From a virus (lineage: Duplodnaviria; Caudoviricetes), in IMG/VR virus record IMGVR_UViG_3300029305_002725, positions 1 to 64,000 of that record: a stretch of DNA of 64,000 nucleotides. One strand, given 5' to 3'. Both the position numbers and the translations under genes were made by a program. Each line of letters begins with the position of its first letter. The stretch's first letter is position 1. This document shows, piece after piece, positions 1-5,717 of the stretch. Below the pieces are notes generated by a model. The model made no database searches, had not been told where the DNA came from, and worked only from the letters and a program-made list of their open reading frames with translations.

Positions 1-753
1 GCTTCCACACCACAATGGAATCAGGCTTGCTTACGCCTTTAAAGGAACGCTTACTCGATTATCACTCCACTATCAACCTTGCGGGCTGTTCACGACTGCG
101 ACCTCGTTCTAGTTTCGCTTCAATCAAATGTATAGTGCTTGTACACTACACATCCCCCATTGCTCTTACTTGCTGAGGGATTAGGACACTTTTCATCGTT
201 CCCAATAAGAGATTTTTACTTATAACATCTGTTTTCAACGCAGATTGCTCTTCCTATTGAGCTACACCGCCATAAATTGAGTTTAAATGGGGGCGGTGGT
301 AGGACTCGAACCTACACTAAGTTATGTGACAGTAGACAGACTCTTATCGTAGTTCTCACACCTTTTGAGTGCAAGAATGCTACCCGCCTACGTGTGCTTT
401 CCTTTGCTTTCGTACTCACACGATTCATCCACCATAGCAGATGAACTGGTAGTTGCCCTTGTTAGCTAAACTCGAACTAACCTACCTACGGTTTACTGTA
501 CCTCAAACCATCCTTTTGCATTGATGCCAGTCGCTTGCGGCAACGAACTTTCTCAAGCAGTCGCTCCTTGAAAATTCACTTCACATCATCAAGTTTGAGT
601 TAGGACATGGGGGACATATCCGAATAGACCTTTTCAGTCTAAGCCAGTCCCGGCTCGTTTTGCTTGGTTTACCATTTCTGGCGGGGCTTTGTCAGTTTCC
701 CCTTTCATCCTCTTACGAGGGTCTATCAGCCAAGCCTGGATAGATAAACTATC
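1..753 (-). ncRNA. Candidate large structured ncRNA (GOLLD/ROOL-like context), running off the window edge
   Basis: ORF-free, GC-richer than the genome, many GNRA-type capped hairpins on the minus strand (CCGCAAG, GCGTAAGC, CTCGTAAGAG). Lies directly downstream of tRNA-Asp. Family not confirmed. Confidence 0.5.
222..325 (-). ncRNA. Circularly permuted tRNA-like domain (3' half precedes 5' half)
   Basis: Minus strand: T-arm GTAGG-TTCGAGT-CCTAC, CACCGCC-C-CCA, 16-nt linker, then GGCGGTG-TA-GCTC..GAGC D-arm and ATCTG-CGTTGAAAA-CAGAT arm. The acceptor strands pair 7/7. Confidence 0.75.
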
Positions 754-830
754 TGGCGACTCCGATGGGTTTCGAACCCACGACCTCCAGCGTGACAGGC
801 TGGCATTCTAACCATCTGAACTACGGAGCC
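754..830 (-). tRNA. tRNA-Asp(GTC)
   Basis: Cloverleaf, anticodon loop CTGTCAC, encoded CCA. Confidence 0.95.
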
Positions 831-891
831 ATAAGCACGAGTTATCTTACAGTATAAGCATTGAAGAAACTCTTTGAAAAGAAAATGCTAT

Positions 892-969
892 TGGTGACCC
901 ATGAGGGATTCGAACCCTCGAATTCCACCGTGAAAGGGTGGTGACTATAGCCAACTTGTCTAATGGGCC
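892..969 (-). tRNA. tRNA-Glu(TTC)
   Basis: Cloverleaf, anticodon loop CTTTCAC, encoded CCA. Confidence 0.95.
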
Positions 970-973
970 ATGT

Positions 974-1050
974 TGGCACGCCAAAAGGGACTCGAACCCC
1001 TGACCTACTGCTTAGAAGGCAGTTGCTCTATCCAGCTGAGCTACTGGCGT
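974..1050 (-). tRNA. tRNA-Arg(TCT)
   Basis: Cloverleaf, loop CTTCTAA, encoded CCA. Confidence 0.95.
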
Positions 1051-1056
1051 ATATTT

Positions 1057-1132
1057 TGGCGGCCCCTACAGGGTTCGAACCTGTGACCTGCGGATTAACA
1101 GTCCGTCGCTCTGCCGACTGAGCTAAGGGGCC
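1057..1132 (-). tRNA. tRNA-Asn(GTT)
   Basis: Cloverleaf, loop CTGTTAA, encoded CCA. Confidence 0.95.
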
Positions 1133-1138
1133 ATAAAA

Positions 1139-1165
1139 GAGCAGTTTCACAACATACTCAGGTTG
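1139..1165 (-). ncRNA. Small pseudoknot motif resembling skipping-rope RNA
   Basis: CAACCTGAGTATGTTGTGAAACTGCTC: CAAC/GTTG and GAGTA/TGCTC pairings cross. Family resemblance is from memory only. Confidence 0.35.
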
Positions 1166-1215
1166 TTCTGAAAGGAGTTTGCATATCATCAACAAATCGG
1201 GCATCCCCATACCCA

Positions 1216-1292
1216 TGGTGCGCCATCGGGGATTCGAACCCTAGACCCCATGCTTAAAAGGCATGTGCTCTAACCTACTGAGCTAATGGCGC
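1216..1292 (-). tRNA. tRNA-Lys(TTT)
   Basis: Cloverleaf, loop CTTTTAA, encoded CCA. Confidence 0.95.
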
Positions 1293-1295
1293 ATA

Positions 1296-1371
1296 TGGTG
1301 TTCTAGACTGGGCTCGAACCAGTGACCGCACGATTATCAGTCGTGGACTCTACCAACTGAGCTACTAGAAC
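1296..1371 (-). tRNA. tRNA-Ile(GAT)
   Basis: Cloverleaf, loop CTGATAA, encoded CCA. Confidence 0.95.
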
Positions 1372-1375
1372 ATAT

Positions 1376-1453
1376 TGGTCCCCTTGGGTGGATTCGAACC
1401 ATCCGATCCCTCAATTATAAGTTGAGTGCCCTAGGCCTCTAGGCTACAAGGGG
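1376..1453 (-). tRNA. tRNA-Ile(TAT), rare anticodon
   Basis: CCCCTTG/CAAGGGG acceptor, CTCAA-CTTATAA-TTGAG anticodon arm, A73-CCA. Confidence 0.85.
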
Positions 1454-1550: not shown

Positions 1551-1579
1551 ATTATATCATACATTCCATTATTTGTCAA
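1551..1579 (-). promoter_or_regulatory. Sigma-A promoter driving the tRNA cluster
   Basis: TTGACA-17-TATAAT with extended TG. Confidence 0.85.
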
Positions 1580-2909: not shown

Positions 2910-3674
2910 TTATTCCTCCAAAAATTCATCTTCCAAAACAAGAACATTTACCTTACCAGTATGCGCAACGCATCCATCAATAGCAATTAACTTGTTATCA
3001 TAATAATATGGAGAAAAATCCGCACCTTCACCGAACTCTGGTCCATTTTCAAATACCATTCTTCCCCAAGATGCATGCCAATGTCCCACAACTACACATT
3101 TCTCAATGTCAAATCCGTTATGAACCATTTCCATACCGTTTAGCCACATAGCTTGTTCCCATTCAGATGCATGCGCCTCACGCCAATCTTCCTTTTTAGA
3201 AAACTTGCGATTACGACGATGATACATAGGTAATCCGTCATGACAATTAACTGGCAAATAGCCATGAGTAAACACATAGTTCTTTGTTTCAAAATAAGGA
3301 ACCATACTATCTATAAAATTTTTAGTTCTCGTATATGCAACTAGGCAGCATTCATCAAAACTTCTACCAAACGGATCATCACCAAATTTACATACAGTAT
3401 CATAAGTTCCATTGTGAAAATCATGGGATCCAGGATAACCTCTGTCGCATAGATCTCTGAGAAGTGATTCATGATTGCCCTTAATCAGAATCTTTCTAGG
3501 CAAACTAATTAAATAGCGCATAACCTCTACGGGCTTTGACCCGCGATCAAAACAGTCACCAAGCATCACTAAAAAATGCTCACTATTGTGCTTATCAAAA
3601 CCTGCCTTATTCAATGCGTCAATCATCTCGTCATAAAATCCGTGCACATCTGATACGCAAAATAATTTAGGCAT
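2910..3674 (-). CDS. Calcineurin-like metallophosphoesterase (Ser/Thr phosphatase family)
   Basis: DVHG, GDCFDRG, GNHE, THG and GHWH motifs. Confidence 0.9.
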   Translation of the reverse strand: MPKLFCVSDVHGFYDEMIDALNKAGFDKHNSEHFLVMLGDCFDRGSKPVEVMRYLISLPRKILIKGNHESLLRDLCDRGYPGSHDFHNGTYDTVCKFGDDPFGRSFDECCLVAYTRTKNFIDSMVPYFETKNYVFTHGYLPVNCHDGLPMYHRRNRKFSKKEDWREAHASEWEQAMWLNGMEMVHNGFDIEKCVVVGHWHASWGRMVFENGPEFGEGADFSPYYYDNKLIAIDGCVAHTGKVNVLVLEDEFLEE

Positions 3675-5168: not shown

Positions 5169-5717
5169 TTATATTTTCCACATCCATTCAAGAAATTCAA
5201 CAGGAACATTTTTAGTCAGCCACACTCCATTCTGTGACTTATAAAACTTATGTCCCCGCAAATACATACACCGACTTCTAATACGAAATACCATGGGCTT
5301 TCCATGACGCTCGCCAACCCTAGTGGCAGTTTCCGTATCTGCCGATAAGTGCACATACAAGCGGCTCTTTGATACAAGTCCAGTCTTCCATATAGAATCC
5401 ATATACTTCGTTGCTGTGCCGTGATACAAATATTCAGGTGGTTCTACTTCTTCAAGCTCAACATCAACATTGACAGAGTGTCCCTGATTGGCACGGATCT
5501 TCGTCTTATCTTCATTAAATGAATAGCGCCGCTTATCATCGGTTGCTACAATCTCTTCTAACAGCTCCATGTCTAGCTTATGCGTCTTATTAACACCATT
5601 GATAAGATCATTTACATTTGCCCATCCATGCGCATCCAGAGTAATACCAATTGCCTCTGGCTTGTGGCGCAGGATTAAACTAATATACTTACTTGTCTTT
5701 GTTATACTCATAATCAA
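5169..5717 (-). CDS. kptA: RNA 2'-phosphotransferase (Tpt1/KptA family)
   Basis: LRH, RANQGHS, LYHGT and RLYVHLS signature motifs. Confidence 0.93.
   Translation of the reverse strand: MIMSITKTSKYISLILRHKPEAIGITLDAHGWANVNDLINGVNKTHKLDMELLEEIVATDDKRRYSFNEDKTKIRANQGHSVNVDVELEEVEPPEYLYHGTATKYMDSIWKTGLVSKSRLYVHLSADTETATRVGERHGKPMVFRIRSRCMYLRGHKFYKSQNGVWLTKNVPVEFLEWMWKI

What the first reader, a model, noticed from the sequence alone, without database searches (positions are those of the whole stretch)
205..347. Circularly permuted tRNA-like domain joined to a large RNA through its variable-arm position
Seen (minus strand): the 3' half comes first (T-arm GTAGG-TTCGAGT-CCTAC, CACCGCC, C, CCA ending at 288). 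After a 16-nt linker comes the 5' half starting at 271 (GGCGGTG, D-arm GCTC/GAGC, arm ATCTG/CAGAT with a 9-nt loop centred on TGA). The acceptor strands pair 7/7. The flanks pair as an interrupted helix (ATAAC/GTTAT, TACT/AGTA, ATAAGAG/CTCTTAT) leaving from the variable-arm position. No alternative 5' half exists upstream before tRNA-Asp. Known: this gene order matches two-piece tmRNAs and the permuted tRNAs of some algae and archaea. Here the G3-U70 and A73 alanine identity elements of tmRNA are absent and a full D-stem and anticodon-like arm are present. Inference: RNase P and 3' processing could give a two-piece, CCA-ended tRNA mimic carrying hundreds of extra nucleotides.
Basis: partly seen in the sequence, partly recalled or inferred. 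Interest (0 to 1): 0.8.

Follow-up and report, generated by a model that had tools for sequence, protein, structure and literature searches.

The report
Back-to-front tRNA inside phage GOLLD RNA
A giant cage-forming phage RNA of unknown function (GOLLD) carries in its central linker a complete tRNA written in reversed order with a built-in CCA end; related phages keep its shape through many compensating mutations, so it is probably cut by the cell's tRNA-trimming enzyme into two clamped pieces, which gives this RNA class a testable handle.

Summary
On the minus strand, 325-222 reads T-arm, acceptor 3' strand, C, CCA (ends at 288), 16-nt linker, acceptor 5' strand (starts at 271), D-arm, anticodon-like arm. 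Joined in normal order, ARAGORN calls it a tRNA. The "large RNA" is a GOLLD RNA (Rfam E 1.7e-25, cut by the contig start; a full-length relative passes the gathering score), and the module fills its variable linker.

Selection keeps the fold. In 8 relatives all 37 pairs stay paired, and 6 of 7 acceptor pairs and 2 anticodon-stem pairs change on both sides. There are four different acceptor stems, all paired 7/7. G1-C72, discriminator C, CCA and U(-1) never change.

It is not a tmRNA, a split tRNA or a Y RNA with Ro60.

Cutting by RNase P into a two-piece RNA is the likeliest mechanism, with M. smegmatis YrlA as precedent, but it is not shown; RNA contigs give only an ambiguous hint.

Ordinary tRNAs in GOLLD linkers are published. 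I found no paper describing a permuted one. This scan has noted the same thing on other DNA (86 notes, at least 78 genomes).

The parts
393..753 (-). GOLLD 5' domain, starting directly after tRNA-Asp
   Evidence: No ORF. Aligns with the relatives at 4-12% divergence; L194 carries a largely different 5' domain. Lies upstream of the Rfam GOLLD match. Boundaries are inferred.
331..392 (-). GOLLD hairpin, positions 1-62 of the Rfam model, last element before the linker
   Evidence: Rfam alignment. RNAalifold finds three pairs with changes on both sides, including 390/333 U-A to C-G.
316..325 (-). Entry strand of the closing stem (ATAAC or ACUUA) plus variable-loop nucleotides
   Evidence: Folds. 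Invariant in relatives, so there is no covariation and the register is ambiguous.
299..315 (-). T-arm GTAGG-TTCGAGT-CCTAC
   Evidence: Canonical T54-Psi55-C56 and A58 positions. Its invariance in relatives is partly forced by my search pattern.
292..298 (-). Acceptor 3' strand CACCGCC
   Evidence: Pairs 7/7 with 271-265. Six of the seven pairs change on both sides among relatives. Two more double changes occur in a DNA contig.
288..291 (-). Discriminator C plus encoded CCA
   Evidence: Invariant in all 8 aligned relatives and in the contigs that cover it, while the neighbouring stem and linker vary.
272..287 (-). Linker, which is at once the 3' trailer of the CCA end and the 5' leader of G1
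   Evidence: Length 14-40 nt with indels among relatives. L007 and L190 add a hairpin. Only TAAACT after CCA and UAU before G1 are conserved.
265..271 (-). Acceptor 5' strand GGCGGTG; predicted RNase P site between 272 and 271
   Evidence: G1-C72 and U(-1) are invariant. The cleavage itself is inferred.
247..264 (-). U8, A9 and the D-arm GCTC-AATAGGAA-GAGC (A14, G18, G19, A21 present)
   Evidence: Its invariance is partly forced by my search pattern.
227..245 (-). Anticodon-like arm; loop GUUGAAA with nominal anticodon UGA at 237-235
   Evidence: Two stem pairs covary (U-A/G-C/U.G and G-C/A-U) while the 7-nt loop is invariant. This region was left free by the search pattern.
218..226 (-). Exit strand of the closing stem (GUUAU or UAAGU)
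   Evidence: Invariant, so no covariation.
1..217 (-). Junction and GOLLD 3' domain, cut off by the contig start
   Evidence: Rfam RF02032 match 392-33 lacks about 109 terminal model positions. The window starts at contig base 1. An RNA contig runs 120 nt further. The full-length relative L007 scores 152.8 bits.
754..1453 (-). Array of seven tRNA genes upstream in the same operon
   Evidence: ARAGORN and Rfam. All encode CCA.
1551..1579 (-). Perfect sigma-70 consensus promoter heading the tRNA-GOLLD operon
   Evidence: TTGACA-17-TATAAT with TG. No comparable promoter lies between tRNA-Asp and GOLLD.

Best explanation
Window 753-1 (minus strand) is a GOLLD RNA at the end of a phage tRNA operon. 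Its variable central linker, which in the solved GOLLD cage points into the interior, is replaced by a circularly permuted tRNA on a short stem. Shown: the fold is under selection. T-loop, D-loop, anticodon-like loop, G1-C72, C73-CCA and U(-1) are fixed in sequence. Acceptor pairs 2-7 and the lower anticodon stem need only pair. The linker is free to vary. Inferred: because the RNA is made on the same transcript as seven tRNAs and presents the determinants of an RNase P substrate (12-bp acceptor/T-stem stack, D/T-loop elbow, U-1/G+1, NCCA), RNase P cuts between 272 and 271. The same cut turns the linker into a 3' trailer, which exonucleases trim back to the encoded CCA (288). The result would be a nicked, two-piece GOLLD: a 5' domain ending in a tRNA 3' half with CCA, and a tRNA 5' half followed by the 3' domain. 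The pieces would be held together by the acceptor stem, the D/T elbow and the closing stem, so each cage subunit would display a tRNA-shaped body with a free CCA end.
For: GOLLD identity: Rfam E 1.7e-25; relative L007 at 152.8 bits, above the gathering score of 150. Permuted tRNA. Selection: alignment A1 has 37 pairs, 100% paired against 91% in shuffles (0 of 500 reach it) and 31-51% when slid; 8 pairs change on both sides. One DNA contig differs from the window by exactly six substitutions, which form three compensating pairs, plus linker indels. There are four acceptor stems, all 7/7, with CCA, C73, G1-C72 and U(-1) invariant. The connector, left free by the search pattern, shows 0-2 changes in 54 nt, against 9-23% divergence in the GOLLD domains of the more distant relatives. 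Co-transcription with tRNAs. Precedent: M. smegmatis YrlA, a closed-loop tRNA-like domain with a 7-bp acceptor stem, is cut by RNase P in vitro and in vivo and carries CCA (PMC4201824). The linker lies in the cage interior.
Against: No RNA ends were mapped. One metatranscriptome contig (X3, 865 nt) runs uninterrupted across the linker and tRNA-Asp, so uncut molecules or DNA exist. Folding energy is not exceptional (z -1.5 to -1.7). T-arm and D-arm invariance is partly ascertainment. The relatives form one shallow family (9 loci), so several double changes may be single events. A published idea for ordinary linker tRNAs is the opposite: storage inside the cage protects them from cleavage (PMC12990946). 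No such module was found in about 27 other GOLLD loci sampled, so it is not needed for GOLLD function in general.
Confidence: 0.6

Rival explanations
1. Uncut tRNA mimic. The module stays covalently closed and serves as a fixed tRNA-shaped surface inside the cage. It could be a docking site or decoy for tRNA-binding factors (modification enzymes, tRNA-targeting defence nucleases, ribosome, EF-Tu), or a rigid joint that sets the angle between the 5' and 3' domains.
For: An RNA contig bridges the linker (X3). The invariant anticodon-like loop and the D/T loops suggest recognition surfaces. S. Typhimurium YrlA and D. radiodurans Yrn1 are tRNA mimics that are not cut (PMC4201824). The review's 'inhibited storage' idea also fits.
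Against: It gives no reason to keep NCCA, G1-C72 and U(-1) invariant next to a freely varying linker and stem. The 7-bp acceptor stem is the feature the YrlA paper links to RNase P cleavage. The RNA is made in a tRNA operon, where RNase P must act.
Confidence: 0.3
2. Chargeable two-piece tRNA mimic. After processing, the CCA end is aminoacylated and the RNA acts in or on translation, in analogy to two-piece tmRNA.
For: Encoded, invariant CCA. Full cloverleaf with a U33/A37-type loop. GOLLD is reported to bind ribosomes in pull-downs (cited).
Against: Acceptor pairs 2-7 change freely, so no acceptor identity set is kept. C73 is rare in real tRNAs (34 of 1,258, mostly tRNA-His, which needs G-1; here -1 is U). 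The body is class-I-like (nearest are Thr/Ala/Trp tRNAs), not tRNA-Ser. There is no G3-U70, no tag reading frame, and tmRNA models score 20 bits.
Confidence: 0.06
3. Functionless remnant of a tandem tRNA duplication with loss of the outer halves, or an ordinary split or intron-containing tRNA whose partner lies elsewhere, or a tmRNA.
For: Permuted tRNA genes are thought to arise from tandem duplicates (background knowledge). The window ends inside the RNA.
Against: Compensatory changes in 8 pairs and 100% pairing. No downstream 3' half in full-length relatives. ARAGORN finds no tmRNA, and Rfam tmRNA scores are far below threshold. The module region is better conserved than the GOLLD domains.
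Confidence: 0.03

Closest known systems
GOLLD RNA (Rfam RF02032) with an ordinary tRNA or pseudo-tRNA in its variable linker (Kretsch et al. 2025, PMC12286853; review PMC12990946; PMC6582537)
   Same: Same RNA family, same insertion site (the linker between the 5' and 3' domains, J13/15 in the review), same setting in phage tRNA arrays, and a tRNA-shaped insert predicted to face the cage interior.
   Different: Published inserts are colinear tRNA genes that could be released whole. Here the gene order is 3' half, CCA, linker, 5' half, so processing cannot release a tRNA. It would instead nick the GOLLD chain and leave the tRNA body holding the two domains together.
YrlA-type bacterial and phage Y RNAs (Rfam RF02553; Chen et al. 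2014, PMC4201824)
   Same: The tRNA-like domain is written T-arm, acceptor 3' strand, loop, acceptor 5' strand, D-arm; the Rfam YrlA model aligns colinearly to 316-247 (30.2 bits). In M. smegmatis a 7-bp acceptor stem makes it an RNase P substrate that ends in CCA and stays as two bound halves.
   Different: The score is below the gathering cut-off of 69. YrlA opens at the anticodon stem, which continues into the Ro60-binding helix; here a full anticodon-like arm is present and the opening is at the variable-arm position. The carrier is a roughly 950-nt GOLLD. No Ro60/TROVE gene occurs in this phage or in an 82%-complete relative.
Two-piece (circularly permuted) tmRNA (Rfam RF04321, RF01849-51)
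   Same: The gene order has the acceptor 3' strand with CCA ahead of the acceptor 5' strand. The intervening segment is removed to give two base-paired pieces.
   Different: No G3-U70, no A73, no tag reading frame, and no tmRNA call by ARAGORN. Rfam scores are 20 bits against thresholds of 47-84. A full D-stem and an anticodon-like arm are present.
Circularly permuted tRNA genes of Cyanidioschyzon merolae and some archaea
   Same: Order of 3' half, linker, 5' half. The acceptor ends are made by RNase P and 3' processing.
   Different: Those genes give free, functional tRNAs through a circular intermediate made by the splicing endonuclease and a ligase. Here the outer ends are continuous with hundreds of nucleotides of GOLLD, no such pathway is expected in bacteria, and no ligase was found in the record.

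Membership tests
GOLLD RNA (RF02032) | Covariance-model score at or above the gathering score (150 bits) | tested here: inconclusive
   The window scores 97.8 bits, E 1.7e-25, and is missing about 109 terminal model positions because the contig starts inside the RNA. The full-length relative L007 (GOLLD domains about 9-12% diverged) scores 152.8 bits.
GOLLD RNA (RF02032) | Conserved 3' core with pseudoknot, preceded by a hairpin and a variable linker | tested here: met
   The Rfam alignment covers the hairpin (392-331), a long insertion at the linker, and the pseudoknotted core. The hairpin covaries in relatives.
GOLLD RNA (RF02032) | Phage or prophage location next to tRNA genes | tested here: met
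   IMG/VR virus record. Seven tRNAs lie directly upstream. In L007 it sits inside an array of about 40 tRNAs.
GOLLD RNA (RF02032) | Homo-oligomeric nanocage | not testable with these tools
   Known from cryo-EM of other members.
Canonical tRNA | Cloverleaf with conserved U8, A14, G18-G19, T-loop and a 7-bp acceptor stem | tested here: met
   ARAGORN calls the de-permuted sequence a tRNA. Residues were read from the sequence.
Canonical tRNA | Colinear 5'-to-3' gene order giving one free molecule of about 76 nt | tested here: not met
   The order is 3' half, CCA, linker, 5' half. ARAGORN and the Rfam tRNA model find nothing in the native order.
Canonical tRNA | Identity elements matching its anticodon (UGA = Ser: long variable arm, G73) | tested here: not met
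   C73. The body is closest to class-I Thr/Ala/Trp tRNAs. The acceptor stem varies freely.
tmRNA, two-piece form | tmRNA model score, G3-U70, tag reading frame | tested here: not met
   tmRNA_permuted scores 20.3 bits against 47; beta_tmRNA scores 19.8 against 84. ARAGORN finds no tmRNA. Pair 3-70 is C-G.
YrlA / Y RNA | Rfam RF02553 gathering score (69 bits) | tested here: not met
   30.2 bits, E 0.0013, and only model positions 30-81, the tRNA-like part.
YrlA / Y RNA | Ro60/Rsr partner gene and a Ro-binding stem formed by the RNA ends | tested here: not met
   No TROVE domain in G000 (63% complete) or in L007's record (82% complete). The flanks are GOLLD domains.
Permuted tRNA genes (algal/archaeal type) | 3' half, linker, 5' half order with pairing acceptor strands | tested here: met
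Permuted tRNA genes (algal/archaeal type) | Ends joined through a bulge-helix-bulge motif to give a circular intermediate and a free tRNA | not tested
   I did not look for such a motif. The ends continue into GOLLD domains. No RNA ligase was found, and the record is incomplete.

The most novel reading that the evidence does not exclude
In this phage lineage the GOLLD cage is assembled from two-piece subunits made by RNase P. It therefore holds a dozen or so tRNA bodies with free CCA ends in its interior, and these act on the host's tRNA machinery, for example as decoys for tRNA-targeting defence enzymes or as substrates that are charged or modified. GOLLD would then be a tRNA-display or tRNA-sequestering particle, which would explain why it lives in tRNA arrays.
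Probability: 0.15. Interest if true: 0.9.

Novelty: new variant of a known kind. Interest (0 to 1): 0.68.

Why it matters
GOLLD is one of the largest and most elaborate bacterial or phage non-coding RNAs. Its structure, a 10- to 14-mer cage, is solved, but its function has been unknown since 2009. A selected, permuted tRNA in the interior-facing linker ties the cage to tRNA biology more tightly than a passenger tRNA does, because it cannot be released and can only nick and clamp the scaffold. It also makes concrete predictions: an RNase P cut at one phosphodiester bond, a CCA 3' end, and two RNA species on a Northern blot. These can be tested with a T7 transcript and M1 RNA in a day. It also extends the small set of natural permuted tRNA-like modules (two-piece tmRNA, YrlA, algal and archaeal tRNA genes) to a new carrier.

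Tried and rejected
1. RNA ends from public runs. All runs are kept as contigs. In one bovine metatranscriptome (X11) the stretch is covered by two contigs, 1-261 (running 120 nt past the window start) and 288-729. Each ends in sequencing-adapter letters, and 288 is the last A of CCA. This fits a two-piece RNA, since cDNA usually loses about 10 nt at RNA 5' ends (my own knowledge). But it is one run of one study, a sister run (X3) bridges the gap, strain bubbles can break contigs, and contigs cannot show ends. I do not count it as evidence.

2. My first junction pattern had a miscounted spacer and returned two unrelated loci.

3. Wider pattern scans of viral contigs gave mostly ordinary neighbouring tRNAs or intron-containing tRNAs. 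They found no further GOLLD lineage with the module.

4. The genome-contig scan with the GOLLD core pattern returned 120 hits, with about 135 expected by chance. None had a tRNA or a module upstream.

5. About 27 other GOLLD loci from viral contigs have neither an ordinary nor a permuted tRNA in the 330 nt before the core, by my heuristic.

6. Kissing partner for the GUUGAAA loop: the only UUUCAA in the RNA (573-568) is not conserved.

7. Internal promoter in the linker: none found by the scan.

8. Link to the nearby Tpt1 gene: no RtcB, RNA ligase, T4 Rnl1 or CCA-adding enzyme in the record.

9. Acceptor variants as copies of real phage tRNAs: 0-1 matches among 1,664 tRNAs.

10. INPHARED phages: no match to the 760-nt stretch.

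11. Weinberg 2009 and Morgado 2020 could not be read.

Full report
WHAT IS THERE. The window is the first 64 kb of a 100.8-kb IMG/VR virus record that is linear and 63% complete by CheckV, so nothing lies before base 1. On the minus strand a perfect sigma-70 consensus promoter (1579-1551) heads an array of seven tRNA genes (1453-754). These are followed without a gap by about 750 nt of ORF-free sequence. Rfam matches 392-33 to GOLLD RNA (RF02032) at 97.8 bits, E 1.7e-25. That is below the gathering score of 150 only because about 109 terminal model positions are missing at the contig edge. A relative, L007, whose GOLLD domains are about 9-12% diverged and whose RNA is complete, scores 152.8 bits. 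An RNA contig also continues 120 nt past the window start. This is the variable linker between the 5' and 3' domains.

THE OBSERVATION.
- T-arm 315-299
- acceptor 3' strand 298-292
- C291
- CCA 290-288
- 16-nt linker 287-272
- acceptor 5' strand 271-265
- U8 and A9
- D-arm 262-247, with A14, G18, G19 and A21
- an anticodon-like arm 245-227

The MFE fold of the isolated segment gives exactly this cloverleaf. In native order neither ARAGORN nor the Rfam tRNA model sees a tRNA. When I join the 5' half to the 3' half, ARAGORN calls a tRNA with anticodon UGA, with or without a short stem at the variable position.

As a chance control I looked at 123 T-loop...CCA...D-arm junctions in viral contigs. 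The two 7-mers typically pair at 2-4 of 7 positions. The 6/7 cases are ordinary neighbouring tRNAs, and all eight 7/7 cases are permuted modules.

The "Ser" label is nominal. The body is closest to class-I Thr/Ala/Trp tRNAs. The discriminator is C, which is rare in real tRNAs: 34 of 1,258 phage tRNAs, 27 of them tRNA-His.

WHAT DOES NOT HOLD. With the upstream strand included, CUGUCUAC (339-332) pairs with GUAGGCGG (391-384) as in the Rfam model, and this helix shows a U-A to C-G double change in relatives. That uses up TACT. ATAAGAG/CTCTTAT would cross this helix as a pseudoknot and never varies. What remains is a 5-bp closing stem at the variable-arm position, in one of two overlapping registers and without covariation.

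SELECTION. I found the module in three viral contigs (L005, L032, L007) and five metagenome contigs (L190-L194). My pattern fixed part of the T-arm and the D-arm, so their invariance means little. The acceptor stem, linker, anticodon arm and flanks were left free.

On the 8-sequence alignment A1, all 37 pairs are standard pairs in every sequence. This compares with 91% in shuffles (0 of 500 reach it) and 31-51% when partners are slid by 1-3 columns. Eight pairs change on both sides: six of the seven acceptor pairs and two anticodon-stem pairs.

Independently, a DNA contig from an animal gut metagenome differs from the window over 176-332 by exactly six substitutions. These are three compensating pairs (2-71 and 4-69 G-C to C-G, and an anticodon-stem U-A to G-C), plus indels confined to the linker.

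Four acceptor stems now exist: GGCGGUG, GCGUCCG, GCGGGAC and GCCCGUG. All pair 7/7. Never changing are G1-C72, C73, CCA, U(-1), a TAAACT just after CCA, and the loop GUUGAAA. The linker ranges from 14 to 40 nt.

Against the window, the GOLLD domains of the more distant relatives differ by 9-23%, and L194 carries a largely different 5' domain. The acceptor stem differs at up to 10 of 14 positions. The pattern-free connector (54 nt) differs at only 0-2 positions. The module is thus at least as constrained as the cage-forming core, with a clear split between positions fixed in sequence and positions that only need to pair.

ALTERNATIVES EXCLUDED.
- Ordinary split tRNA: full-length relatives have no downstream T-arm plus complementary strand plus CCA, and the two strands present covary with each other.
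- tmRNA: models score about 20 bits against thresholds of 47-84, there is no ARAGORN call, and pair 3-70 is C-G.
- Y RNA: the YrlA model aligns colinearly to the T-arm, acceptor and D-arm part, which shows the same written order. But it scores 30.2 against 69 bits, and neither this phage nor the 82%-complete relative encodes Ro60.

HOW IT PROBABLY WORKS. Shown: a selected tRNA fold with an encoded CCA, in the linker of a GOLLD made from a tRNA operon. Known from the literature:
- The GOLLD linker is unresolved but flanked by residues that face the cage interior.
- Ordinary tRNAs or pseudo-tRNAs sometimes occupy it.
- M. smegmatis YrlA, a tRNA-like domain whose acceptor stem is closed by a loop and is 7 bp long, is cut by RNase P in vitro and in vivo. 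It ends in CCA, and its halves stay together.

Inferred: RNase P cuts between U272 and G271. Because leader and trailer are the same segment, this one cut leaves the linker as a trailer, which exonucleases trim to CCA288. The RNA becomes a nicked, two-piece GOLLD clamped by the tRNA body. The pattern of conservation fits this: cutting-site and end nucleotides are fixed, stem sequence is free, and the linker is free. It is harder to explain for a purely structural joint. I put this at about 0.6. An uncut mimic or decoy is at about 0.3. Charging is at about 0.06, because no identity set is conserved.

RNA DATA. The stretch occurs in ruminant and other animal gut samples from 11 studies, six of the runs being RNA. 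One RNA contig of 865 nt bridges the linker and tRNA-Asp, so precursor-length molecules or DNA exist. Another run of the same study shows two contigs that stop at 261 and at 288, the CCA end, each abutting adapter letters. This is what a two-piece RNA would give, but contigs cannot prove ends, so I list it as inconclusive.

NOVELTY. Papers describe colinear tRNAs in the GOLLD linker. Full-text searches for GOLLD with "permuted", "tRNA-like" or "RNase P" found no description of a permuted module. Weinberg 2009 and Morgado 2020 could not be read, so a passing mention there cannot be excluded.

This scan's own notes report the same architecture on other DNA: 86 notes in at least 78 genomes. In my own sampling it is confined to one ruminant-gut phage family and is absent from about 27 other GOLLD loci. 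I class it as a new variant of a known kind.

Noticed in passing
window 5169-5717 (-): The phage encodes a Tpt1/KptA RNA 2'-phosphotransferase (Pfam E 3e-47), about 4 kb from the tRNA-GOLLD operon, next to a calcineurin-like phosphoesterase (2910-3674). No RNA ligase, RtcB or CCA-adding enzyme was found in the 63%-complete record, so its substrate is unexplained.
   Followed up: partly
window 2078-2050, 1998-1970, 1579-1551 (-): Three perfect 12/12 sigma-70 consensus promoters with the TG extension lie within 530 bp. The last heads the tRNA-GOLLD operon. This points to a host with classical sigma-70 promoters.
   Followed up: no
L007:7558-8229 and L007:12269-12780: A related 122.5-kb phage contig carries both a ROOL RNA (296 bits) and the GOLLD with the permuted tRNA, inside one array of about 40 tRNA genes, plus a drum RNA hit. 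It therefore encodes two different cage-forming RNAs in one phage.
   Followed up: no
L075, L079, L099, L105, L124 (junction positions listed): Five other viral contigs have permuted tRNA-like modules (T-arm, 7/7 acceptor, CCA, linker, D-arm) that are not in GOLLD. Three score weakly as YrlA, and one lies beside a tmRNA gene. After the D-arm they lack a canonical anticodon arm.
   Followed up: partly
L159-L162, L166-L169, L173, L178: Phage tRNA 5' halves are followed, after the anticodon stem, by a shared ...GAAAA-N-CTAATTCGGGGAAAGCTAAG... sequence. These are probably tRNA genes interrupted by a structured insert such as a group I intron. Not examined.
   Followed up: no
window 292-298 / 265-271 and relatives: The acceptor stem is the fastest-changing part of the whole RNA (up to 10 of 14 positions), and its variants reassort with linker types: L007 and L190 share a linker but not a stem, while L007 and L191 share a stem but not a linker. 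Whether this is neutral compensatory drift, recombination, or selection for change is open.
   Followed up: partly
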